From the NCBI RefSeq assembly GCF_009914755.1, contig NC_060936.1: DNA of 64,000 bases; one strand, 5' to 3'. This DNA is from the human T2T-CHM13v2.0 reference genome, Homo sapiens. Position numbers and translations under genes: made by a program. Under the pieces are notes generated by a model. That model was not told the DNA's origin and ran no database searches. It saw only the letters and a program-made list of their open reading frames with translations. This document shows, piece by piece, positions 30,446 through 62,672 of the stretch (the first letter of the stretch is position 1; each line of letters begins with the position of its first letter).

Positions 30446-33169
30446 CAAGGAATTGGCTCATGGCTAGGCAATTCCAAAATCCATAAGGCAGGCTGCCAGG
30501 AAGGGCAGGCTGGGACTCTCTAGCAGAAGCCAAAGCTGCTGAAGCTGCTGTCTATAGGTAGAAATTCATGTTTATCAGGGAAGCCTTAATTCCACTCTTA
30601 AGACCTTTCAACTGATATTGAATCAATTTCACCTAGATTATCTAGGATACTTTCCCTTACTTAAAATCAACTGGTTACGGACTTTAACGAAATCTACAAA
30701 ATACCTTCAATAAATATCTAGATTAGTGTTGGATTGAGTAACAGGGGACTATTGCCTAGCAAAGTTGACACATGAAAAAACCATCCCAGGTAACTTCCAC
30801 ACAAAATCATGGCCAGAGAACAATAGTACCAGAGCAAGACTTTTCCCTCTTCTTTGAATTCCCCATCTTTGAGGCTGGAGGGCTGCATCACTCCCCCACT
30901 GCTGGTTTGTGAGAGCTGTATGTAGAGGAAAACAAAAATTAGCCGGGCGTGGTGGCAGGCACCTGTAATCCCAGCTACTCGGGAGGCTGAGACAGGAAAA
31001 TCGCTTGATTCTCCACCCAGGAGGTGGAGGCTGCAGTGAGCAGAGATCGTGGGCTGCACTCCAGCCTGGGCAACAAAGTGAGACTCTGTCTCAAAAAAAA
31101 AAAAAAAAATTGAAACAAAAAATGAATTGGTTATAAGAATAACATTTTGATTTAGATTGGATTAAACTTTCTCAGTCAAATGAGACTGTTAGAGTAGCTT
31201 AAATTTATTAGAAGAGCTAAATGATTTGTCTGATAAGTTGTCCAAGGGTATGGAGGCTCTGGTTGGAGAATAAAGCTCTTTCCTGATTGCAATATATGAA
31301 TTCTGTTCATTCAATAAGTTGGTCATATGTATAAAGTAGACGATTGCTAAATATAACATTAGTTATCACCTTCAAAGCTTATCTCTTCGCCTCCGCGTCT
31401 ATTCTCTTTGTCCTCTCTCATTTGTTGTTTTTGATGGCTACTCTATGCTTTTACTGAGAATAGAAGAATGAGAAAACCAGCTTAGATTGCGTATGTGAAA
31501 TACTAGAAAGTGAGATTGTATTTTCCTTCTCTGATGACTTTACAAATAGAATGATTAAAAAGTATTTTTCTCTAATAATTTGTGTACACAGAAACTTAGG
31601 ATTGACAAAACGATCTTATTTGTTCTTGACATATGTATAATTTTATGCTTTTTTAAAAAACTTTTTTTTCTGTTCATGGCCTTTTCCTCTGTTTCTTCTT
31701 CCTCATGACACCACTTTAACAACTGATGTCTTACTACACATTATTCTCATTATCTCATTATAGGATTTAACTGCCCTCTTTCGGTCAATGCCAGTAATTG
31801 CACCATTAATGACAGTTGCTAAAGCAGTCAGTCCAGTGACTTTTCAGAGGGTGCTGAGATTACAGATTCTCTTCCAGGATTCTTTGTTTGTTTAGTAGCC
31901 AATCAAGGGTAAAGTCTCTTCTATTCAATCACTAGAGGAAAAACCATTTTCTCACTACCTTGATTCTAGAAAAATTTGTGCATTCTTTTGATAATACTCA
32001 GACACAAATAGTTCTTTAGTGGCCATTCAATTATTCCCTTTGTTACTGTACATTTCCAAGATAGATTATTTGATTAGCAAAAATGCCTGCGCAATGCATT
32101 CAGGTTATTGCCAGGTATGGACACTACTAGAATGACAGTGAGTAAGAGAGAAAAAAGAAATGATACCTTTCAGTAAGAAGGAAAATGGAACTATCAATAA
32201 TAGAAGGCTAATTAGTAAAGAAAAAGTCAAGAGAAGATAAGACTGAGAAAAACTTCAGATTCTTAATAAAAAGAAGGCACTCAATTATAGGAAAGTAAAC
32301 TTTCTGAAAAGTAGGAGAGAAGTAGGATAGTGGTAAATTTGCTACCATTTTGAAATGGTCCATAATCATGAATATATAATTTCAGTATATGGCACAGACT
32401 CATTACAGAATCACACAGTGCTAAGTTCCTAGGCCTTGTCTGTCCTCGAACAATAGTATATAATTTAACTTCTCTCGCCTCATCTTGACAGATAAATACC
32501 ATGCTATCCATTTTTCTGTTTAAGCGCCTTCTGTGTTGGGCTATCCAAGTCAGGAAATCTTTCCTTAGTATTCTGTAGGACCCATTAGGTTGAAATCAGG
32601 AGGTTTTTCACCATTTGATGGTTTGGATCTATAAGAAGGACACTTTCATATTGTTCAACCCAAATATTTATTGTCCTGTCATGAAATAGCAATGATATAT
32701 TTGGAATGTCAGCTAGCTTTTCTGTCCAGTGCCTCCCTCCCATCTTCATCTCAGATATTAAATTTTACTAAAACTTACTTTTATTTAGAATGTAATTCTT
32801 CTGAATCACTTTCAGACTTTCTGTTTTTATATGTGGTTGTGTGGTCTGTGACATCACAGGACATTTTCTGAAAGGGTGCCTCACTATTGTCTCTGGGGTT
32901 GTTTTCCAAACTATTGAAAACTATTCTGCAGATCTTCATGCTCAAAATGTTTTGATCTTACAAGAACTTATCACTGAAAGATTTCAAACAACAACTAGAA
33001 TTCAGATTCCTTTTTCAACTGCTTATTAAACGGTTCATTGATTGAAACATTGAGAGATTGTAGTTGTTCAATGGGAATGTCAATGGGAAGACAACTAAGT
33101 TTATGCATGAAGAGGGAAAGGCAAGTGAATCACGACCACTGCCCACCTGACAGCAGCTGTGCAAAATGC

Positions 33170-36891: not shown

Positions 36892-37259
36892 CTAGATAGT
36901 GGTAAATATTGGCAAGAACACAGGGGAAATGAGACCTCCTTGTATACTACTAGAGGGAGTATAGATTTGTGTAGCATTCTGGTTGAATAGTAAATTTAAG
37001 TTAGTATATATCATTTTATTCAACAATTCTTATCCTGGCTTTATAACCCAGAGTAATTATCACATAGGCTGATAAATTGACATGTATTAGGATATTCAGA
37101 GCATTGCTGTATACAGTAGAAGTATCATAAATATCTGTCACTAAAGGAGTGAATAAAATTTTGGTGGCTGCAAATTATTTTAGTGGAATACTATACAGAA
37201 GTTAGAAGCATGACACAAAACATGCAAATAGCAACACAGAAAGAGGCTGAAAAGTATTG

Positions 37260-47208: not shown

Positions 47209-47797
47209 ACTTATTTATACTTCTCCAATAACACGTGATTCTGTCACACACATAAAACTGATATCCAGATGTTTTTCAACCCAAAGTCATACAAATGGTC
47301 AGTGGCAGATTTTGGACCAGAAGTTAAGCATTTCTAATTCCATGAAATTGTCGTAATATTATGACTCCCACCTAAACATAACTTATTAATTAATTGATTG
47401 ATTGATAAATTTTCACCTTTCTGCAATACGGAGCTTCTATCTAGACAGGCCAGTCATTTTACCTGGTGCTAAAATAAACCATTTCTTCTGCTTTTGCAAA
47501 AAATGTTTCCACTCAGATATACTCTACACTCTTGTCACTAATCTTCAGTTTAGAAGTTTTTTCTTGGAGTGAAACTTTCCCAGATTGCCATTACATTGCT
47601 TTGCATATTCTGAGGTTCTGCAGTAGTGAGGCTGTTGTGAATTGTTCCTAAATTTATGCTAGGTGCTCTTACCTCAATTTGGATGCCATTATTTGTTTAT
47701 TGCAAATACAGGGTACAATGAAAAGCAGTAAGTGCGCATGGAGTAAATTTGCATTAAATGAAGAAGGAATCAATTATAGAGTCTCTAGAAATACATA

Positions 47798-47803
47798 TTT
47801 ATT
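47798..47803 (-). terminator. PolyA signal of the fossil terminal exon (candidate LINC00612 3' end)
   Basis: tttatt on + strand = AATAAA on -, about 100 nt past the fossil stop codon; A2M has its signal about 90 nt past its stop. Confidence 0.6.
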
Positions 47804-49419
47804 TGCCAACCTCATTCAGTATCTGTATTGCAGGGACAAAATATCCTTTTAAAAAGTCGTGGGTCTGGGGATTCCAGCCAAGTCTTGTTTATAGACACAA
47901 GCCTCAAACATTTTCTTGCTCTGTGCCTGTGGAGAGAAGAGGAAAGCGAACAGGATGACTTCGGGCTTGCCAAGGAGTGAATTTAATTCTAATTGGATAT
48001 GGACAGCAGCAGGGCTTTGCTAAAGGAGACCAAACTGGTTATGGCTGAGAATGGAATCCATCAGATATCTACCCTAATCACAGGGTAATTTCATTTACAC
48101 TCTTCTGATAAGAAAATCAGGAAACCTTCCAGGAAGTTAGTGTTCCTCTCCAAAGCTGTATAGTTCTGCGTTACCTTGCAGTATGATAAATCTGATATCA
48201 ACTAATAAAAGATGTAGATGATTTTGTATTTAGGAGGACTGCTTTTGAGAGCAAAATGAAGGCTTGGGATATGTAGAGCAAACTGCCTATCGGCTGCAGG
48301 GGACACTGTATTCAGCAAATTTGCTTCATCTGAAACACACAATGGGAGAAAAGCTTGAGAATGGGAGCTTCAACGGGACAGGGCTATGTGGAGAGGCTTT
48401 GACCTATTTAAGGACTGCAAACCATACTGAATCAGGGCCTGCGTGATCACAAAAATGTCAGCTCACTGGGGAAATATATAGACATGGTCAAGGAATTTCC
48501 ACTCTTGATACCATTAGTATAATCCGTTACTCTGGTGGAAAATCAAAGCCTGCTCATGCTACAGTGTTCAAGCAAAGTACTAGGGGGGATCACGCGGGTA
48601 TGTGTTCTTTCAGTTCTTGTTCCATATTTGCTTCTTTTTTCTTGCATGATATTTCTTATATGTTTTCCTCATCTGAAAGACTTAGCATAATTCTCTCCAT
48701 AAATCAGTATAATACCCACGATTTATATTCCAGCTGAAATTTTACTTGGGGGGTGTGTGTGTGTGTGTGTGTGTGTATTTTAGGGATGGGGTCTCACTCT
48801 TTCACTCACTGCAGCCTCAAACTCCTGGGTTCCAATGATCGTCCTGCCTCAGCCTCCTGAGTAGCTGGGACTACTACAGGTGTGTACCAGCATGCTGGCT
48901 GATTTTATTTTTCAATTTTTTGTAGAGATGGGCTCTCACTTAGTTGCCCAGGCTGGTCTCAAACTTCTAGCTTTAAGAGATCATTCTGCCATGGCCTCCC
49001 AAACTGCTGGGATTATAGGCATAAGCCACTGTGCCCAGCCTCTTCATTTGCTGTTTAAAGACCACTCAACGCTATAGTTCTCACCCCTCTCTTAGTTCCT
49101 ACTATAATTATTTGTATAGTTCTTAGGCTCTTCTTTATTTCTTTGCATTGCTATATTATCTTTTTAAGATTTATGTATGCCTTTATTTATAAGCACTTCT
49201 ACGTAAAACTCTTGGTACTTTGGATTATTTTGCACGACTGATAGGCTTACATATCAATATACATGTATATTACAGGTAGTTTTGGCAGTAGTTTTGTAGG
49301 CCAAGGAAGAAAAAATAAGTTATGGAGACAGATTAAACTGAAAACAAGATGTACAAGGGTTTACCACACTTTTATTGCTTTAAGAATTGAGGTTTGGCCT
49401 CCACTTCCACCCTTGTTGC

Positions 49420-49715
49420 TACTATCTCAAGTGAAATAACTCAGAAACAGGAGGTCAAATACTTCACATTCTCACTTATAAGTGGGAGCTAAATAATTTG
49501 TACACATGGACATAGAGAGTGGGATAACAGATACTGGAGACTCAGAAGGGTGGGAGGGTGACAGGGCAAGAGGGATGGGAAATCACTTAATGGGTACAAT
49601 GTACTCTAATTGGGTGATGGCTACACTCAAAGCCCAGACTTCACCACTGTGCAATGTAGCCATGTAACAAAACCATACTTGTACCCCCTAAATCTATATA
49701 AAGTAAAAAAGAAAA
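49420..49715 (+). mobile_element. L1MA 3' end fragment in a fossil intron
   Basis: ctcacttataagtgggagctaa...gtacccccta aatctata followed by an A-tail. Confidence 0.8.
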
Positions 49716-50616
49716 AAACCCCAAACACATTGGCTTTTATTTTATTTTTCCATCAAAGACACCACACTGGAAAGAACTGAGTTTATCTAGGATTCTGTTT
49801 TGCTCACCTGTCTTATAGTAATCATAGGCTTTCACAAAAGCAGGTTTCAGCTTTCTTATGGGGTTGTCTTGCAGAAGAGTGAAAGAAAAGGTCAGTGTTC
49901 AATCCGTAACCCAAGAAAGGAAGGAGTAATAATGCGGAACCAGGGAGGCCTCATCTCTTTTTCCTTAGCATCAGTCTTCATCCTTTGAAAGATAATTTTT
50001 TAGTGGGCTAATAGGATTCATTCTCTAATTCATTGTGCTCCCTAATGGCTCACATAGGGAGCAGTTGGAGGGTGATGTGGATTTTAGAGTAGGAACCTCA
50101 GGAACTTGAGCAGAGGCTCCCAAAAGTAGATTAGAAGTTTATTAGTCTTTTAAACGATTAAAATAATACATATTCCTCCATAATATCCAACACATGGCTC
50201 TGCCTATAGTGAGAGATAGATTCTTTATACTGGCAAGCTGACTCTATCTATATTAATATTAATATTTCCAAATATTCAGGAAACAGGCGTACATCAGGGG
50301 CTGTTCTTTTGCTGCAAATGAAGTTGATGGAATTACACTGTGATACGACTGACTGTGAGTAATAGATCTAGACTGATAGCATATCTGTTTATCATCTGTA
50401 TCTAATCTGTCATCTACCTTATTTATCTATTATCTATCTAGCTATCTCTCTATGTATAATTTATCTAACTTCTCTCATACATGTATGCTAAGGTAAGGTT
50501 GATTTAATCACTGACAACCCTTGGAAACACTTCCTATCCTTGATTACCAACTTTCAACATGGCTTCTGGATGATGAAGCTTATTTATGGAAAAGAATGTT
50601 TATCTGAAGTATACAG

Positions 50617-50765
50617 AAATATTCATATGCTCATTTTAATATAAACAAACATATATGTTTTAATATAAACATATAAATATTCATATGCTCATTGTAATAT
50701 AAACAAACATATATGTTTTAATATAAACATATAAATATTCATATGCTCATTTTAATATAAACAAA
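50617..50765. repeat. AT-rich tandem repeat, ~58-bp unit x ~2.5
   Basis: aaatattcatatgctcattttaatataaacaaac... recurs three times. Confidence 0.85.
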
Positions 50766-51889
50766 TCCATACCTACTGGCCTCCCCCAACCCTCTTGTCT
50801 GTGACACTCCAAATCCCAGGAAGCTTGCGATGAGGAATGAGGATGTAAAATATCTCACGTGAACAGAGAGGATGTGCTTTTCCAAATGGCCTTCCTAATG
50901 ACTGCTCTTCTCGTACCACGTGCTTGCCTGGTGATGAGATCCCCTAGAAGGACTGTTCACCTGGGTCTGTCTAGCAAGGCTGGCAGGGGCCCCACCTGGT
51001 CCACAGAAATCAAGATATGGTTGTTGTGCACTTCTGTCCTGCTCACGTGGCTAGATCTTTCAAGCTAAGGAAAATAAGAGAAATCACCAGTGTTACTGAA
51101 TAAAGAAAGCCTGTGGGGTACAAAGAGACAAATAGACTATGAGATTGAAGAAGTCTATACATAAACAAAGCTGGGGTTAAATTCATTTAAATGAGTTCGA
51201 AGACACTTGTCCAGTAAGATGAAAACATATACAGAGTATTATGAATACCACCACATTAGATACAAGATTGAATATTCATATGATTAAGTAACAGGCGTCT
51301 TTAGCATTTGTTTGAAGGTGAGGGAGAAGTGTCCTCACATTGGATAGCTAGTCATCTGAGATGATTTGCAAAGCCATCTGTCTCTACACTGCCATTCATC
51401 TCAGCTTTCTCTACATTTCACAGTACTTAAAGACTATGCCAATGATTTTGGTACTTAATTATATCTTGCCCTGAAATGTCATTTGACAGTTTTGGTTACC
51501 CATGTGTAATATTTTTATCTAGAATGTATCAGCACCTAGCACAATGCTAAATATATATTTGGTACTATATGAATTCAATTTCCTTAGATTATGACCAATG
51601 TTGCTTTGACATTATTAGGATACCATTGTTTTATTCTTACATTGGATTAAAAAAATCCAAACACCTAGCACCTATTTACCATTTTCACTGTGGGTTTCAA
51701 TGGATAAAACCAGATATCAACTTGGATACATCCAAGATTAGACAGCTCCCTGTGTAACTATAGATATAAGAAAGAAAAATAAGCCTCAGTGTCTTTTGAA
51801 TCTTGCTCTCAGTTAAGGTTCAACATAAGCCCTGACATCTTTATTTATTTTTGTTTTTATGTTTAATTTTATATATGCATGTATGTATG

Positions 51890-52509
<620 letters not shown>

Positions 52510-54139
52510 CAGCCCTGGCATCTTTAAGTAGCTTTGCTAACTATTCCTGTGTCCTTAGTGGTCTTTCAACTGCTGGGAATAAATAGCCTTTACTGTCAGT
52601 GTGAATAGTTCTGAAAACTAACTGCATGATAGAACCACCTACAGAGTTCATTAAAAACATAGATGCCTGTTAGCCCAACGTGGTGGTGGGCGCCTATAGT
52701 TCCAGCTCCTAGGGAGGCTGAGGCAGAAGAATTGCTTGAACCTGGGAGCAGAGGTTGCAGTGAGCTGAGATTGCGCCATTGCACTCCAGCCTGGGCAACA
52801 GAGTGAGACTCCATCTCAAAAAACAAAAAAACGAAAACAAAAAACAAAAAACGCAGATGTCTGAGCACATCCCCAAAAATAATTAATTAAATCTTTATTG
52901 ATGAGACCTGGATATCTGCATTTTAAAATAAATTCTACAAAGGATGCTAACCAGATTTTAGAATTGCTGGTATATGTCGCTTCTTTATAACTTATATGTT
53001 TTGGATTAATGATGATCTTTTTCGTCACGTGAAGACTATCTTCACAATTAGACTATAAGATTTCTCTAGGTAAGAGACAGTATATTTATATTTCCTGTGG
53101 TTACTCGAATATGATTTTGCTTAATTAATATGTCTTGCTTTTGTGAAACACATTTAACTTGTCTACTGATGATGGATCAAATTGTGAATATTATTTCCTT
53201 TTTTCATCCGAGAAGCTAGGATTAAATTCCTTTAAATGAATTTGAAGAATTTTGTATTTATAACCAGAGTCATGGGTTGTATTCCAAGTAAAGCTTTTTT
53301 TATTTTTTATTTTTTTATGAGATAGGATCTCACTATGTTGCCCACACTGGTTTTGAATTCCTGGGCTTCATATGATCCTCCCATCTCAATCTCCTGAGTA
53401 GCTGCCAGATAAAGTTTTTGAAAAGTGTTGTTGAATTGGGAATCTTTTTTCTCTTAGAAAAATAGAATTAATTTTTTTTTAATAGAGATGGGGCCTTGCT
53501 ATGTTTTCCAGATGTTTGCCAGGTTGGTCTTGCACTCCTGGCCTCAAGCAATCTTCCTACCTTGGCCTCCCAAAGTGCTAGGATTACAGGTGTCAGCCAC
53601 CGCACCTGGCCATTGTGCCTGGCCAAAAAATATAATTTTAAAAAGACCAGAAAGACTTTTCTTTAGAGGTAAAGATGAATGAGCCTATGTTAAAGTGTCA
53701 TTGAAAGAAATTATTAATGGTCAGTCGTGGTGACTCACCCCTGTAATTCCAGCACTTTGAGAGGCTTAAGTAGAAGGATCTCTTGAGCCCAGGAGTTTGA
53801 GACCAGCCTGGGCAGCATAGCGAGACCCTATCTCTACAAAAAATAAATAAATAAGATGAAAAAGAAGTTATTTATTCTTCGATCATGATGGCAGGCAATC
53901 AAAGAATCTTGGAGGCATACTAGTTAGAGCTTTTAACCCCACAGGTCTTCATTGTCCACATCGGTGATGACCATTTTTTTAGTAGACAAGGCAAGAACTT
54001 AATGAAGAGAATTACTTTACGTTTCTTGAATTTACTACTGAAGAGTTATAGGTAGCTAATAGCTAATATTTTCGTAGCTAGTGTTGGGACACGGAAACCA
54101 ACCCCCCAAAATATGGTGCTTTGATGGGCTGAACTGTAT

Positions 54140-54735
54140 AGTATATCTGATATATTTATATAGTGTATAAAAAATCACCTGACACAATAGATGGATAATA
54201 TATCTGATATATTTATATATCGTATAAGAAATCACCTGACACAATAGATATGTAATATATCTGATATATTTATATATTGTATAAAAAATCACCTGACACA
54301 ATAGATGGATAATATATCTGATATATTTATATATTGTATAAAAAATCACCTGACACAATAGATGGATAATATATCTGATATATTTATATATTGTATAAAA
54401 AATCACCTGACACAATAGATGGATAATGTATCTGATATATTTATATATTGTATAAAAAATCACCTGACACAATAGATGGATAATATATCTGATATATTTG
54501 TATATTGTATAAAAAATCACCTGACACAATAGATGGATAATATATCTGATATATTTATATATTGTATAAAAAATCACCTGACACAATAGATGGATAATGT
54601 ATCTGATATATTTATATATTGTATAAAAAATCACCTGACACAATAGATGGATAATATATCTGATATATTTATATATTGTATAAAGAATCACCTGACACAA
54701 TAGATGGATAATATATCTGATATGTTTATATCAGA
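54140..54735. repeat. 57-bp minisatellite (VNTR), ~10 copies
   Basis: Unit aatcacctgacacaatagatggataatatatctgatatatttatatattgtataaaa; gives the 19-aa periodicity seen in the ORF track. Confidence 0.95.
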
Positions 54736-56468
54736 TATATTATACATTTATATATTATACATATACATTTATATATATACATAATAAATACATTGTATTA
54801 TACATATATGTATATATTATACATATACATTTATATGTATAATATAGTTGACATATTTATATATTTATATCGGATATATTGTACATTTATAATATATTTA
54901 TTATATTTTATATTATAGTATATTATCATTTATAATATATTGTTATATGTTATATGATATATATTTATAGCAGACATAGTAAATATCTATTGTGTTAGGT
55001 GATTTTTTATACAATATATAAATATATCAGATATATTATACATTTAAACAGTTAAACACCTAAACAGCCCAATTTTATGTGGATCAGTACTACTAACGGC
55101 TTAGGGTAAAATGACAGCTACAGCGTAACTAGAATGTTAAAGTGGCATGTCTCAGACAACGTGGATGGACATAAAGTATTTGAGAGAATATTGCATAATA
55201 GAAAAAAACATTGTAAAGACTAAAATACTAAATAAGACCTTTTTTTCCCGAGCAATAATTTGCCCAGGCTGGTCTCAAACTCTTGGCCTCAAATGATCCT
55301 CCTGCCTTGGCCTCCTAAAGCATTGGGATTATAGGCATGAACCACTGCTCCTGGCCAGAATTCTTGATTAAACAATAGGGTCTAAATAAATTTAAACCCC
55401 TTTTATTCTTTTTATTCTTACAGGGTAGACTCAAATATTCTATTTCTTTCCAACTTTATATTCTTGTCATAACAACCCAGTATTCTCTGAGGCAAATGGA
55501 TGCTTATGACCAACTGGCCTGAAATGGGGGAATATAGGGTTAGTGGTGAGTCACATATAAGAAAATGCAAGAGAATAGCAGTGTATCATATTTCAAAATA
55601 AAATACAAACTATACATAAAACTGACCCCAACAAGTATCCATTTCATTTCCTGTCGTGTATCTATATGCTTTCCTGGAAAGAATAAACTTCAGTTCACAA
55701 AATCAGATGTAGAAGATACATCACTTTTAAAAATTCTACGTAATTTTAATTCCAAGATTCCCATGCCACCAGGCTGGTGGGAAATCCAGTTTTAGTTGTA
55801 ATTAGGCCTTTTCTCCAGTATTACATATGAATTTGAGTGTAATACCCCAAAACTTGAGAAGGCCATTGTATCTCCAGTCCACTGGGGCAATGAATAGCTT
55901 GAGCACCTGATCATTATAATGACCCAGATGTGTATCTTTTTCTTTTACTCTGCGGTGAGTTTTTCTAAGGGAGGAATCCTATTTTGTTTAATTTTGTATT
56001 ATAGCATGGGATATTGTGCCTGGCAGATAGTAGGCAATCAGTTAGTATTTCAGGAATAAACACTCTTGGTCAGTGATACAGCTAATGATTTGCAACAAGC
56101 ATATCCTTAAAGTACCTTTTCAGTAACGATTTCCATATGAACAAAGAAAAAAACTAGAACCAAGAGGTAAAATTATAATCCTGTTGTCTTGTTCCCATAG
56201 CCATACTCTGATTTCTTTTATGTTCTGTGCCCTGGCTTGATACTTAATTTGACAGCTAATTATAATGTTTATTAAGCTCTGAAATATACTTTCTCCTGGC
56301 CTTTTTGTCTGAAGTTGTTTGAGGTGTCACCATGGTTGGAAGTTAAGAGCATGGAAGCTAGACTTCTTGGTCTTGAATTCTAGCTTTGTCACTAACTTAG
56401 TAACTTTGGGCAAATTACATGTCTCTGCTTCAATTTCATTTGTTAAGGTAGTACCTATTTCACAAGGC

Positions 56469-58856
56469 TGATGGTGGCAGCAGTGGGGCGTCCAGAGCTG
56501 CCGCTGCCATCACGCCAGCTGCAGCAGGGAGGGGCGGGCAGCGGCGGCGGAGCAGCTGCGGGAGCCGCAGTGGCTGCTGTGGGACATCTGTGCCTCGCGT
56601 CCCCTGTGCCTTGAGACCCCAAAGCAGCCGACTGCGCCGCCACCATCCTCGCGTTGCCGGGTGGGGCGACGTGCTCCCCGGCCAGGAGCCTCCACCGCTC
56701 CGGACCCTGGCCCTATGTCGCCGCTCTCGCCCGCCGCCGCCGCGGAGTGGGAGTGGGGAGGAGGGGAACAGTCCTTGGAGCCGGCCCCGGGAGTACTCCC
56801 GGAGCCTGCCGCCCTGGAAGCCGCCACGATGGACCGGGCTGAGTCGCCCGCCGGAGGGGAAGCAGTGTAGTCGGGCACGGAGGGGCAGGCAGAGAGGGGC
56901 CCCAAGGCGGAGCTGGGTCCGGGGCGGAGCGGTGTTCGCACACAAAGCGCTGGGGCTGGACCCAGGGTTCGGGGCCAAGGCGAGAAGTGGGAGCGGGGCC
57001 CGCTTTGGGGACCCGGACAGCGGTGTGGCCACCGCGCACACCTCCGACAGCGCCGCATTCCTGGGCCTTGGGAGGAGGCTCTGAGTAGGGCCGCCTGGGG
57101 CGCGTCTTCAGGGTCCTCCCGGCACTGGGGTGACCGCCGAGCTAGACGCGCCTGAGGGCTGAGCCCCAGGGCTCGTGATCTGCTCCCGGAGGCGCCCCCC
57201 AGGCAGGGCCGTGAGCCGGGCGAGGGAGAGTCCTGGGCTGCCCCTGAGCCCCGGGGCCACGGGAAGAACTTGCAGCGACGTCATCCCTGCCCCGGACACA
57301 GTCCCGGGCCCAGGGAGGACCTGGAACATTCCCTTCCTCCCCCCCCCCCCCCGCCCCCGCCCATCAGCCCAGCCTGCAAGGAGGCGCCACCGGACCTGCA
57401 CACTCAGGAGCAGGTGAGCCAGGGACAAGCAGGAGCCCCGCCCCTTCCGAACTGGTGGAGCAGGAGCTCCCAGGGTGCAGCTGCAGCCACCTTGCCGCGG
57501 CTGTGGACATTTTCTGTGCTCTCAGAGGCCCAGCAAAGTCCCCTGCCCACTGCAGGCTCCAGGGTGCCTACTCCGGCTGCCTGGCTTCTCTCCACTGTTA
57601 GCACCCACTCTGAACTCAGAGCAAGGTCGGGCCGAGCCTGGGTACTGTCACAGCCTGGCCGAGCGTGCACACGCTCAGGACAGTGCTGATACGCCAGCCC
57701 CCTGCCGTCTCGGCCCCCTTTGGAACTTGGGCACCAACAAGCGTGGGAGGGAGGCTGAGAGGGGTCTGAAGACAGCTGGACACTGACTTGCAGGCGCTCC
57801 TTGGCATGAACAGCCTGGGAGCAGGAGGCAGACAGGTTCCTGGGTGGAAGGGGATGGGTCCCCAGTGAAGTCCCACCCTCAAGCTGGTGAGGGCTTGAAG
57901 CCTGCAGACCAGAGAGGTAACTTGTGGTGCTGCTCCCTGGGCCCACTCATGGCTGCCCATGGACCAATCAGCATGCATTTCCTCCCTCTGAGGCTCATAA
58001 AATCCCCCAGACTCAGCTAGATTGGAAGAGAGGATGGGAAGACAATGGATGACCTACCTGTGGAGAGAAACTACCCATTCCAGAACCTCCTCTCTGCTGA
58101 AAGCTGAACACTCAATGGGAAGACCTGTTTGCAGAGAGGAGCCAGCCACTCCAGGGTCTCCGTTCTGCTAGAAGCTGAACACTCGTTGGGACACCCTTGC
58201 TGTGGAAAGGACATCCTTACTGTGGAAATGAGCTACTAACTGCAGGTCTCCTTCCTCTTCATCTTCCTTATCCTTCTGTTCCATTGCTCAGTAATGCTCC
58301 TCTTCATCTGTCTCATTCTCCACTTGTCTGCTTGATGCAGGAGCTGAGGAGCTGCACAGCAAGGTTAAAAGAGCTGTAACACAAACAGGGCTGCAACATG
58401 CCCCTTGCTCCCCACAGGGAGAGAAGAGCTCTGGCCCTCGGAGAAGCCCAGACCTGGGAGCTCCTTGAGCCCGGGCTGTGACTCCCTCTTTGGGGCCCTG
58501 GTTGGCGTCACTGCATTCGCCAGTGCCACTGTTGGAAGCTGCTTGTGATGCGCCTGGTCCAGGGGGAAGCTGTTTGTTGTGTGCCTGGTCCAGCCACCTC
58601 ATGGAGAGCCTGTGCTGGCACCTGGAGCTGCCCAACCTGGGCAGCAGCTTGTGTGTGTGACTGCACAGTGGCCACGCTTGCTCACACACCCCTAGCACAC
58701 CCCTCTGCTCCACCCGTCTCAATCTCCCTTGGATCCGGGATCCAGGTTGGTAGCAAGTGCGAGTGGGCAGAAGCAGCCCAGTGGGCCTAGAGCAAAACTC
58801 AGGCAAAGGTGCCACTAGACTGGCCAGGAAAGCGACACCCTAAAGATCCCATAATG
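56469..58856 (+). mobile_element. Long MER52-family (MER52D-like) ERV1 solo LTR
   Basis: tgatggtggcagcag...gccgctgccatcacgccagctgcagcagggagg start and gcgacaccctaaagatcccataa end match recalled MER52 termini; homologous to the 42.6 kb copy. Confidence 0.75.
56480..57450. promoter_or_regulatory. CpG island; probable bidirectional promoter of LINC00612 and A2M-AS1
   Basis: Very GC- and CpG-rich with GC boxes (ggggcggg, cccgcccc); the only CpG island in the window. Confidence 0.8.
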
Positions 58857-59864
58857 CTGATATGTTAATTCTATTCTATAAGCACCACACAGAAGTGATA
58901 GCTTTTATTTCTTATTTTGTCTAGCCTGGAGACAGAGCTAAGGATTCCTTGAACTGCAAAGTCTTTTCCAGTTCTTAGTTTATACAATCCATACTCACCT
59001 TCTGCCTAACTAAGCATTGTCATTTTTGTGCCAAATGAAGAGTAGGACTCCTACGATTGTCCTCAGACTCTCTTGGCTCAATCCTCCTGCTTTAACCTTT
59101 CCTACTTCAAAAACTCCTGAAGTTTTGCTTCCCCTTCTATAGAATGGAAATATATGTCGCAATACTTACTGCAAAGAAAATTATATATTTTAAAAATAGA
59201 CTAAAGAGATGTTGTGAGACATCAGACATCAATCAGATGTTGTGAGAACTGATTTCTGCATCAGAATATCTCCTTGACTTTACAGCTATCCTTTAATCCT
59301 GGCTCAAAGTTCCAGAAGAAAGATGATCCAATATAATACTCCTATTTGGACTTTGAGTCATACACATTCCTTCTTCTGAGAAAACGTGCTTCTGCATGAA
59401 TCCTCCCTTCATTATTTTCAGCTCATCTATTATTGAATCTGAAACCCCAGGTTAACTGACTGATCACTCTCATCAGTGGCAGATTTTGGTGTAACATAGG
59501 ACACATCACTCCCAATTCAGGTCAAGTCCCAATTATCTTGCCTCTCAATATGACATGTTCAATGTTGTATTTCATTCTACTTCATTTTAATGTAAAAAGT
59601 CTTTTCTGGTGAAGTCAGTCTTTTATTTTCTCATAAAAATTCACCCTTTGGGTTTTTCATAGGGTATTCCCATAACCAAACACACTTTACACTTTCCTAG
59701 TACATAACCCAATACTTTCTTCTTTCCCCACAGTCCTTACATGAAGCCTACTCAGACCGACATCACTGTATCATTTTTTTGTATTCTGAAGTCCTTCAGC
59801 ACTTGATTCCTTTAAGTTTAATCTTGGTATTCTATTGGGAATCATATGGAAATGTACAATGATA

Positions 59865-59918
59865 TTTATTGAATGAACAGGAAACAGGGAAAGACATTGA
59901 CCAGAAAAAGTGTTTATT
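59865..59918 (-). terminator. A2M: Two tandem A2M polyA signals
   Basis: tttatt at 59913-59918 and 59865-59870. Confidence 0.75.
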
Positions 59919-61998: not shown

Positions 61999-62672
61999 CT
62001 GAAGAAAATTGAAATACCACAAATGTTAATAAATAGATGAAACCCCTGGGGGATCCAGAGAAAAAATCTTTGTATTGCCAAAATAACCCTGAGGGTAGAA
62101 TTCTTCAAATGCTTTTTGTAAGGAAATATATAATGTAATACAATTAAAAATGAAAGGCATAAAGGGTTTACTATTAGTATAACACACGACTAATGTGTAA
62201 AGTTATTTATCTGAAGAAAAGACAGCTAAGTATCCTAAACTTGGTAGTTACTCATATTTCAAAGTTCAATTCAGTTTCTATTTCTTCATAAGGAGTTTTT
62301 TTCCTGTTTTGCTTGCTCTATTTTTCTTTTAACTTCTGTAATACTTATAGTTTATGCCAATCAGTCATTTTCATATTTTTCACTGGTTCGTGTTCATATC
62401 TTTTATCTTCTTAGCAAAATTCTAAGCTAAGAAGAAATTGAAAAGCAGGAACCTGCTGACAATCTTTTTCTTGTAGTCATGGGTCCTAGCACAGTGCTCT
62501 GCACATGGTCAGCATTCATACAAACACATGTGATTATATTTCTGAGCTGGAAAAAGGATAAGGCTTTGATAGAGATTGACTTTAATAGTATTTTGATATT
62601 AGTATTGTCTTATGCTGGGGATACATACATCATTAAATAAAATAGGGCAGTCTGGGGTTATGATAAACCTAC

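What the first reader, a model, noticed from the sequence alone, without database searches (positions are those of the whole stretch)
47775..51757. Hidden intron-containing fossil of a second macroglobulin gene downstream of A2M
Seen in sequence: five minus-strand segments mirror A2M exons 32-36 in order. 51680-51757 reads YTGSC..., then ISGFI and, after a frameshift, KPTVKM (78 bp vs 91). 50996-51064 reads LERSSHVSRTEVHNNHILISVDQ (69 bp, open, AG/GT intact). 49808-49910 reads [33 protein letters not shown] (103 bp, nonsense codon, acceptor AG mutated to GG). 48287-48329 reads DEA/FAEYSVPCS (frameshift, GC donor). 47904-47926 reads (G)TEQENV* and is followed by AATAAA. Intron sequence next to exon 33 also resembles the A2M intron (51066-51190 vs 62000-62110). 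None of this shows in the ORF track. Inference: an ancient tandem duplicate of the macroglobulin family, not a retrocopy.
Basis: seen in the sequence. Interest (0 to 1): 0.9.

Follow-up and report, generated by a model that had tools for sequence, protein, structure and literature searches.

The report
Human murinoglobulin-like gene relic inside LINC00612
Just downstream of the human A2M gene lie the decayed last five exons of a lost fourth macroglobulin gene, most likely the human counterpart of rodent murinoglobulin, and the non-coding RNA gene LINC00612 now reuses its splice sites and poly(A) signal.

Summary
Five minus-strand segments (51680-51757, 50996-51064, 49808-49910, 48287-48329, 47904-47926) are colinear with A2M exons 32-36. 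Exon sizes, intron positions and intron sizes are similar, and the similarity runs into the introns. All five are disabled: one stop codon, two frameshifts, a GG acceptor and a GC donor.

The interpretation (ancient genomic duplicate, not a retrocopy) holds but can be sharpened. It is not a copy of A2M. On a fixed full-length backbone, placement beside human or anthropoid A2M is rejected (AU p 0.002 or less), and 79% of the likelihood weight lies inside the MUGL/murinoglobulin clade. The relic carries that clade's C-terminal signature DEA-FAEYS, found in 9 of 11 MUGL rows and 0 of 41 A2M/PZP rows.

No exon 1-31 equivalent survives in the 8.1 kb up to A2M.

LINC00612 exon 2 begins at the relic's exon-33 acceptor and ends at its exon-34 donor. 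Exon 3 is the relic's terminal exon with its AATAAA.

Caveats: only about 100 residues carry signal, the PZP and A2M stems are not rejected, and no named PZP2 sequence was available. Neither the 2026 HGNC paper on the A2M family nor any other searched paper describes this relic.

The parts
51680..51757 (-). Relic of exon 32. It reads YTGSC..ISGFI, then a frame change, then LKPTVKM, and is 13 nt shorter than in A2M. AG and GT are intact. It lies in LINC00612 intron 1.
   Evidence: tblastn hit with 12 of 12 MUGL-clade queries
50996..51064 (-). Relic of exon 33: open, 69 nt as in A2M, 79.7% nt identity. Its acceptor is the 5' boundary of LINC00612 exon 2.
   Evidence: annotation table supplied with the finding
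49808..49910 (-). Relic of exon 34: 103 nt as in A2M, TGA at codon 4, acceptor AG changed to GG. Its GT donor is the 3' boundary of LINC00612 exon 2.
   Evidence: Pfam PF07677 A2M_recep 29.6 bits against a cut-off of 21.7; PDB A2M receptor-binding domains E 7.5e-9
48287..48329 (-). Relic of exon 35. It reads D-E-A, then a frame change, then FAEYSVPCS. The donor is GC. LINC00612 skips it.
   Evidence: (short hits with 10 of 12 MUGL queries)
47777..47926 (-). Relic of terminal exon 36, which is also LINC00612 exon 3. The coding part 47904-47926 reads (G)TEQENV-stop.
   Evidence: annotation table
47798..47803 (-). AATAAA poly(A) signal, 21 nt before the LINC00612 3' end.
49808..51064 (-). LINC00612 exon 2, made of relic exon 33, the retained relic intron 33 and relic exon 34. 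It holds a 58-nt tandem repeat at 50617-50765.
   Evidence: annotation table
56455..57257 (-). LINC00612 exon 1. It lies in a G+C-rich island (64-74% GC, about 56400-57900) that it shares head to head with A2M-AS1. It is not macroglobulin-derived.
   Evidence: annotation table; no colinear tblastn hits
51758..59892 (-). The 8.1 kb between relic exon 32 and the A2M 3' end, where exons 1-31 of a head-to-tail neighbour would lie. None is detectable.

Best explanation
The segments are the 3' stump (exons 32-36, the C-terminal receptor-binding domain) of a once complete macroglobulin gene that lay head to tail behind A2M.

By sequence and position it is most likely the human ortholog of MUGL/murinoglobulin, the fourth member of the A2M/PZP/PZP2/MUGL group. 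That gene is intact in rodents, rabbit, horse, rhinoceros, hippopotamus, pangolin and hedgehog.

In the human lineage the gene died. Exons 1-31 are gone (inferred: deleted). The five remaining exons carry a stop codon, two frameshifts and two broken splice sites (shown).

The stump is still transcribed, because LINC00612 starts at a G+C-rich island shared with A2M-AS1 and splices into it. LINC00612 uses the relic's exon-33 acceptor, exon-34 donor, exon-36 acceptor and poly(A) signal (shown from coordinates). It retains relic intron 33, whose downstream acceptor is dead, and skips exon 35, whose donor is GC.

On this reading LINC00612 is a transcribed relic of a unitary pseudogene and not a lncRNA that arose de novo.
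For: 1. Colinear exon and intron homology to A2M exons 32-36.

2. Family membership. Relic exon 34 scores above the Pfam A2M_recep cut-off.

3. A defined clade. A full-length tree of 61 named proteins gives three clades. The MUGL/Mug clade has 12 rows with support 100 and includes guinea-pig murinoglobulin-1 and a Fukomys alpha-1-inhibitor-3-like protein.

4. C-terminal tree. In an IQ-TREE of 53 rows and 108 columns the relic falls inside MUGL (97/99) and within its rabbit-plus-rodent part (93/85), as expected for a primate ortholog.

5. Placement on the fixed full-length backbone:
- Best position is sister to the rodent Mugs (ELW 0.65).
- All positions inside MUGL together hold 0.79.
- The MUGL stem holds 0.14.
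- Positions inside PZP are rejected (AU 0.035).
- Positions beside human or anthropoid A2M are rejected (AU 0.002 or less).

6. Outgroup check. With sauropsid outgroups and two unnamed Mug-like representatives added, a branch with support 98 separates A2M+PZP from MUGL plus the relic.

7. Signature. [DG]EAAFAEYS occurs in 9 of 11 MUGL rows, 0 of 27 A2M rows and 0 of 14 PZP rows. The relic reads DEA-FAEYS.

8. Diagnostic columns, 10 in all: 3 match MUGL only, 0 PZP only, 1 A2M only, 4 PZP and MUGL, 1 A2M and PZP, 1 none.

9. The best tblastn scores for exon 34 come from rodent Mugs: Chinchilla 5e-11 and guinea-pig murinoglobulin-1 9e-11 at 65% identity. Human A2M gives 9e-9 at 54.5%.

10. Position. 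The relic lies 8.1 kb from the A2M 3' end. The HGNC paper states that horse MUGL lies next to A2M, syntenic to the mouse and rat Mugs (PMC12874980, Discussion, read).

11. No primate is among the 21 MUGL-class proteins of the 165 examined.

12. LINC00612 exon boundaries coincide with relic splice sites (annotation table).
Against: - Only about 100 residues carry phylogenetic signal.
- On the C-terminal alignment, AU tests do not reject the relic with A2M (delta lnL 9.3, p 0.33), nor the relic on the A2M+PZP side (delta lnL 9.5, p 0.34).
- On the backbone, the PZP stem and the A2M stem are not rejected (delta lnL 8.0, AU 0.14).
- Plain identity does not separate MUGL (mean 71.0%) from PZP (71.3%). 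A2M is lower at 66.3%.
- At one diagnostic column the relic has the H of A2M and PZP where 82% of MUGL rows have N.
- No named PZP2 sequence was in the data set, so affinity to PZP2 was not tested.
- That the Mugs lie on the KLRG1/M6PR side of A2m in mouse is recalled and comes from no call.
- That exons 1-31 were ever present here is inferred.
Confidence: 0.78

Rival explanations
1. It is a partial (3'-end only) or complete old duplicate of a PZP-like or PZP2-like gene, or of an unresolved basal member of the A2M/PZP/PZP2/MUGL group, and not the ortholog of MUGL.
For: - Mean identity to PZP (71.3%) equals that to MUGL (71.0%).
- The PZP stem is not rejected (AU 0.14).
- AU tests on the short alignment reject nothing.
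- PZP2 is absent from the data set.
- No exon upstream of exon 32 is found, which a partial duplication would also explain.
Against: - No diagnostic column matches PZP alone; 3 match MUGL alone.
- The DEAAFAEYS signature is absent from 14 of 14 PZP rows.
- Positions inside the PZP clade are rejected (AU 0.035).
- Intact PZP lies on the other side of A2M (annotation table).
- HGNC names a human PZP2 pseudogene (PZP2P) as a separate locus (PMC12874980).
Confidence: 0.18
2. It is a recent tandem duplicate of the 3' end of human A2M that has since decayed.
For: It is adjacent to A2M, on the same strand, with the same exon sizes for exons 33 and 34.
Against: - Nucleotide identity to A2M exons is only 69-80%.
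- Placement as sister to human A2M or anthropoid A2M costs 27-28 lnL units and is rejected (AU 0.002 or less).
- The tail and the exon-35 motif are of MUGL/PZP type, not A2M type.
Confidence: 0.01
3. It is a chance resemblance or a processed retrocopy.
For: None found.
Against: - Four colinear blastn hits with E down to 2e-22.
- A Pfam hit above the cut-off.
- Introns at the conserved positions, with flanking intron similarity.
Confidence: 0.01

Closest known systems
MUGL / murinoglobulins (Mug1, Mug2, rat alpha-1-inhibitor-3; MUGL in horse, rabbit, rhinoceros, hippopotamus, pangolin)
   Same: - Best phylogenetic placement.
- C-terminal signature DEAAFAEYS and a TEQ.N-type tail.
- Lies next to A2M, as stated for horse, mouse and rat in PMC12874980.
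   Different: Only the last five exons remain, and all are disabled. No thioester, bait region or MG domains are left. The literature read here describes murinoglobulins as absent in humans (PMC5142107, passage seen).
Human A2M-family pseudogenes named by HGNC in 2026: PZP2P (unitary), OVOS1P, OVOS1BP, OVOS2P
   Same: All are dead members of the same family in the 12p13 cluster. OVOS1BP was also first annotated as a lncRNA and then reclassified as a transcribed pseudogene (PMC12874980).
   Different: This relic belongs to a different subgroup (MUGL) and is much shorter, a 3' stump. It is not mentioned in that paper: 0 occurrences of LINC00612, and 4 human pseudogenes listed.
A2M exons 32-36 (receptor-binding domain), same window
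   Same: Same exon order, phases and sizes (exons 33 and 34 are identical in length), similar intron sizes, and the same distance from AATAAA to the transcript end.
   Different: 69-80% nucleotide identity. The exon-35 motif and the tail differ. The terminal exon is not alignable at nucleotide level.
lncRNAs built on the debris of protein-coding genes (transcribed unitary pseudogenes; Xist exons from Lnx3 is the textbook case, recalled and not from a call)
   Same: Splice sites and the poly(A) signal of a dead coding gene are reused by a non-coding transcript.
   Different: Here the promoter is new to the relic: a G+C-rich island shared with A2M-AS1. No function has been shown to depend on the inherited sequence.

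Membership tests
Alpha-2-macroglobulin family, C-terminal receptor-binding domain (Pfam PF07677) | Significant match to the A2M_recep profile | tested here: met
   Relic exon-34 ORF: 29.6 bits against a cut-off of 21.7, E 1.1e-6. A2M's own exon 34 scores 36.2 bits. PDB A2M receptor-binding domains match at E 7.5e-9 to 9e-7.
Alpha-2-macroglobulin family, C-terminal receptor-binding domain (Pfam PF07677) | Gene structure colinear with exons 32-36 of a family member | tested here: met
Functional macroglobulin gene | Open reading frame, intact splice sites, and the N-terminal MG domains, bait region and thioester | tested here: not met
   TGA in exon 34; frame changes in exons 32 and 35; GG acceptor; GC donor. 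No colinear hit to residues 1 to about 1360 of 15 tabulated full-length queries (3, 12).
MUGL / murinoglobulin clade | Falls inside the clade in a tree | tested here: inconclusive
   Inside the clade with 97/99 support. ELW 0.79 inside plus 0.14 on the stem; positions inside PZP and beside human or anthropoid A2M rejected. But the PZP and A2M stems are not rejected (AU 0.14), and AU on the short alignment gives p 0.33-0.34.
MUGL / murinoglobulin clade | Clade-specific C-terminal residues | tested here: met
   [DG]EAAFAEYS in 9 of 11 MUGL rows and 0 of 41 A2M/PZP rows; the relic reads DEA-FAEYS. Three MUGL-only diagnostic columns against 0 PZP-only and 1 A2M-only.
MUGL / murinoglobulin clade | Position next to A2M | tested here: met
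   8.1 kb from the A2M 3' end, on the same strand (annotation table). The adjacency of MUGL and the Mugs to A2M comes from PMC12874980. Which side of A2M they lie on in other species is recalled only.
MUGL / murinoglobulin clade | Not closer to PZP2 | not tested
   No named PZP2 protein was retrieved. Two unnamed representatives of uncertain identity (P0183, P0184) fell on the A2M side, away from the relic.
Processed pseudogene (retrocopy) | No introns | tested here: not met
   Four introns at the parental positions, 360-1478 nt.
Unitary pseudogene | Ortholog functional in other species, and no intact copy in this genome | tested here: inconclusive
   Full-length proteins in the MUGL clade are on record for 10 other genera, including a guinea-pig protein named murinoglobulin-1 precursor. 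The absence of an intact human MUGL could not be tested because no human genome was on hand. It rests on PMC5142107 and PMC12874980.
Transcribed pseudogene / pseudogene-derived lncRNA | Annotated transcript uses the relic's exons and signals | tested here: met
   LINC00612 exons 49808-51064 and 47777-47926 (annotation table) begin and end at the relic's exon-33 acceptor, exon-34 donor and exon-36 acceptor. AATAAA lies 21 nt before the transcript end.

The most novel reading that the evidence does not exclude
LINC00612 is not merely decorated with macroglobulin debris. The inherited sequence would be what makes it work. About 64% of its mature RNA (1407 of 2210 nt) comes from the dead MUGL gene body. 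This includes 172 nt of exon 33-34 sequence that is 73-80% identical to the A2M mRNA. On this reading, shared microRNA or RNA-binding-protein sites with the A2M and PZP mRNAs underlie the reported co-expression of LINC00612 with A2M and its effect on A2M. That would be a unitary pseudogene kept as a post-transcriptional regulator of its surviving paralogs.
Probability: 0.1. Interest if true: 0.7.

Novelty: new member of a known kind. Interest (0 to 1): 0.5.

Why it matters
- Papers read here describe murinoglobulins as absent in humans and as an exclusive introduction in rodents (PMC5142107). The 2026 HGNC survey of the family widened MUGL to several placental orders but lists no human remnant. 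A relic in the expected place shows that the human lineage once had the gene and lost it. It also gives a physical landmark for dating that loss across primates.
- The relic supplies an origin for LINC00612. That lncRNA has a growing disease-association literature, which treats it as an ordinary intergenic RNA.
- It suggests a change of annotation to a transcribed unitary pseudogene, a MUGLP-type name. HGNC did the same for OVOS1BP.

Tried and rejected
- The relic's own exon-34 ORF (53 aa) was searched against the 5.8-billion-protein index (lengths 'longer'). Fifteen candidates were scored and none reached E 0.1.
- Further relic exons were sought by tblastn. One search ran 16 A2M, PZP and MUGL queries and tabulated three of them (P0005, P0074, P0114). 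One search ran and tabulated 12 MUGL-clade proteins. Nothing colinear turned up in 51.8-59.8 kb or elsewhere.
- A weak minus-strand hit at 56354-56437 to residues about 330-360 of 2 of 12 MUGL queries (E 4.8 and 14) was inspected. It was dropped as noise: equally strong hits are scattered over the window, and the reading does not continue.
- A weak hit at 36925-36996 (5 of 12 queries, E 1.2-24) is not colinear and was dropped.
- Nucleotide similarity between the relic's terminal exon and that of A2M is not above shuffles (69 of 500 reach it).
- AU tests on the 108-column alignment did not reject the alternatives. The fixed-backbone placement was then used. It rejects only the positions inside PZP, inside Laurasiatherian MUGL and beside human or anthropoid A2M.
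- A search of 50%-identity representatives was made to find PZP2. It gave unnamed sequences whose identity could not be settled.
That paper's supplementary list of unitary pseudogenes could bear on novelty.
- No library paper confirmed the mouse gene order A2m-Mug-Klrg1 (listing only).
- GENCODE and pseudogene.org could not be consulted.
Full report
**What is there.** On the minus strand between 47.8 and 51.8 kb lie five short segments that repeat, in order, the last five exons of A2M, whose own exons 32-36 lie at 59.9-62.8 kb in the same window.
- blastn compared the A2M 3' part with the rest of the window. Apart from matches to the A2M intronic stretch above 63000 (Alu and other repeats), the best hits are four colinear, same-strand matches with E values from 2e-22 to 0.002.
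- The matches run past the exon edges into the introns. They extend 67 nt upstream and 56 nt downstream of exon 33, and 72 nt upstream of exon 34.
- Exon lengths are 78, 69, 103 and 43 nt, against 91, 69, 103 and 42 in A2M. Nucleotide identity is 69-80%.
- The four introns measure 615, 1085, 1478 and 360 nt, against 674, 902, 515 and 343.
- The exon-34 piece alone scores above the Pfam cut-off for the macroglobulin receptor-binding domain (29.6 bits against 21.7). It also matches solved A2M receptor-binding domains.
The copy is genomic and not a retrocopy.

**It is dead.**
- Exon 34 has a TGA at its fourth codon, and its acceptor reads GG.
- Exon 32 has lost 13 nt and changes frame.
- Exon 35 changes frame, and its donor reads GC.
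- tblastn was run with 16 full-length A2M, PZP and MUGL proteins, of which three were tabulated, and with 12 MUGL-clade proteins, all tabulated. It finds exons 32, 33 and 34 every time and exon 35 mostly. It finds nothing colinear for residues 1 to about 1360 anywhere in the window.
- Only 8.1 kb separate relic exon 32 from the 3' end of A2M, so the first 31 exons are not there.
- Two weak hits were looked at and dropped as noise.

**Which macroglobulin.** The protein index turned out to hold named mammalian proteins.
- A full-length tree of 61 of them gives three clades: A2M, PZP and a third of 12 rows with support 100.
- The third clade contains guinea-pig murinoglobulin-1, a Fukomys alpha-1-inhibitor-3-like protein, and proteins of chinchilla, beaver, rabbit, hedgehog, hippopotamus, pangolin, rhinoceros and horse.
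- That species list is the one the 2026 HGNC paper gives for MUGL. The horse protein has the 1482 residues that paper states for horse MUGL (PMC12874980; sections 9, 13, 16, 17 and 26 read).
- Of 165 proteins of 800 residues or more from the two searches, 94 class with A2M, 50 with PZP and 21 with MUGL. None of the 21 is from a primate.

**Placing the relic.** A conceptual translation with X at each break (104 positions) was aligned with 52 C-termini.
- Plain identity separates A2M (66.3%) from the rest but does not separate PZP (71.3%) from MUGL (71.0%).
- Ten clade-diagnostic columns were found. Three match MUGL alone, none PZP alone, one A2M alone, four PZP and MUGL, one A2M and PZP, and one none.
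- The exon-35 motif [DG]EAAFAEYS is present in 9 of 11 MUGL rows and in 0 of 27 A2M and 0 of 14 PZP rows. The relic reads DEA, a frame break, then FAEYS.
- The tail TEQENV-stop resembles the rabbit and hippopotamus MUGL tails. The pattern occurs once in the six frames of the window.
- A careful IQ-TREE search puts the relic inside MUGL (97/99), in its rabbit-plus-rodent half (93/85). That is where a primate ortholog belongs.
- With sauropsid outgroups and two unnamed Mug-like representatives added, a branch with support 98 still separates A2M+PZP from MUGL plus the relic.

**How firm that is.** AU tests on the 108-column alignment do not reject holding the relic with A2M (delta lnL 9.3, p 0.33). 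Nor do they reject placing it on the A2M+PZP side (delta lnL 9.5, p 0.34). I therefore fixed the backbone from full-length proteins and compared 12 attachment points.

| Attachment point | Delta lnL | ELW | AU p |
|---|---|---|---|
| Sister to rodent Mugs (best) | 0 | 0.65 | 0.93 |
| All positions inside MUGL, summed | - | 0.79 | - |
| Branch between MUGL and the rest | 4.1 | 0.14 | 0.30-0.35 |
| PZP stem and A2M stem | 8.0 | 0.06 together | 0.14 |
| Inside PZP | 12.6 | 0.014 together | 0.035 |
| Sister to human or anthropoid A2M | 27-28 | below 1e-4 | 0.002 or less |

- A recent A2M duplicate is thus excluded.
- MUGL is the best reading by a wide margin, but it is not the only one left standing.
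- No named PZP2 sequence was available, so PZP2 was not tested.
- HGNC names a separate human locus, PZP2P, for that gene.

**Position.** The relic lies directly behind A2M, on the same strand, between A2M and KLRG1 (annotation table). The HGNC paper says horse MUGL lies next to A2M, syntenic to the mouse and rat Mugs. That the mouse Mugs lie on the Klrg1 side is my recollection, and no paper in the library confirmed it.

**What it does now.** The RefSeq table supplied with the finding gives LINC00612 three exons.
- Exon 2 (49808-51064) begins at the relic's exon-33 acceptor and ends at its exon-34 donor. It therefore consists of exon 33, the whole of intron 33 and exon 34. The retention fits the dead GG acceptor of exon 34.
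- Exon 3 (47777-47926) begins at the relic's exon-36 acceptor and ends 21 nt after its AATAAA. In A2M that distance is 20 nt.
- Exon 35, with its GC donor, is skipped.
- Exon 1 lies in a G+C-rich island (64-74% GC, about 56.4-57.9 kb). The island faces A2M-AS1 and shows no macroglobulin similarity.
- Of the 2210 nt of mature RNA, 1407 come from the body of the dead gene.
- The mechanism I propose: a divergent CpG-island promoter reads into the stump, and the stump's surviving splice and poly(A) signals shape the transcript. The coincidence of coordinates is shown. That this is how the lncRNA arose is inference.

**What is in print.**
- The HGNC family paper names four human pseudogenes (OVOS1P, OVOS1BP, OVOS2P, PZP2P) and has no occurrence of LINC00612.
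- A 2016 paper states that murinoglobulins are absent in humans (PMC5142107, passage seen).
- The paper on LINC00612 and A2M has no occurrence of pseudogene, homolog or duplication terms (PMC9985899).
- No paper in the library holds both LINC00612 and murinoglobulin.
- Twelve papers hold LINC00612 and pseudogene. Judged by their titles and abstract openings in the search listing only, none concerns its origin.
- Two unitary-pseudogene papers have no mention in their main text. Those of the other, as far as held, have no mention.
- GENCODE could not be consulted.

**Verdict.** This is a real, intron-containing relic of a lost macroglobulin gene. It is most likely human MUGL and is now the backbone of LINC00612. 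It is a new member of a known kind (unitary pseudogene, transcribed): of moderate interest, and useful for annotation and for the history of the family.

Noticed in passing
window 50617-50765: A 58-nt tandem repeat, 2.6 copies, 97% matches. It lies inside relic intron 33, which is part of LINC00612 exon 2.
   Followed up: no
window 54138-54969: A 57-nt minisatellite, 10.4 copies, 96% matches (54138-54731). It is followed by AT-rich microsatellite sequence, and GC falls to 13-22%. It lies in LINC00612 intron 1.
   Followed up: no
window 56400-57900: A G+C-rich island (64-74% GC). LINC00612 (minus strand) and A2M-AS1 (plus strand, from 57362) start from it head to head, about 100 nt apart. The RefSeq 'silencer' elements at 56593-56752 lie in it (annotation table).
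   Followed up: partly
window 30869-30943 (minus strand): The odd C-terminal tail of the horse MUGL model P0114 (after ...APCHTDQQ) matches this unrelated spot in the human window: 60% over 25 residues, E 0.006. This suggests that the last exon of the horse model is predicted from repeat-like sequence. The rhinoceros model ends at ...DQQ.
   Followed up: no
window 36925-36996 (minus strand): A weak tblastn match (E 1.2-24, 5 of 12 MUGL queries) to residues about 127-150 of MUGL proteins, sharing QIYTP. It is not colinear with the relic and is probably chance.
   Followed up: partly
window 50280-50354 and 50820-50907 (plus strand): Exons of long KLRG1 read-through transcripts lie antisense within LINC00612 exon 2, that is, inside relic intron 33 (annotation table).
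   Followed up: no
proteins P0011 and P0020: Some database names disagree with the sequences. A Saimiri protein named 'PZP like' has an A2M-type C-terminus. An Aotus protein named 'Alpha-2-macroglobulin' has a PZP-type C-terminus and falls in the PZP clade.
   Followed up: partly
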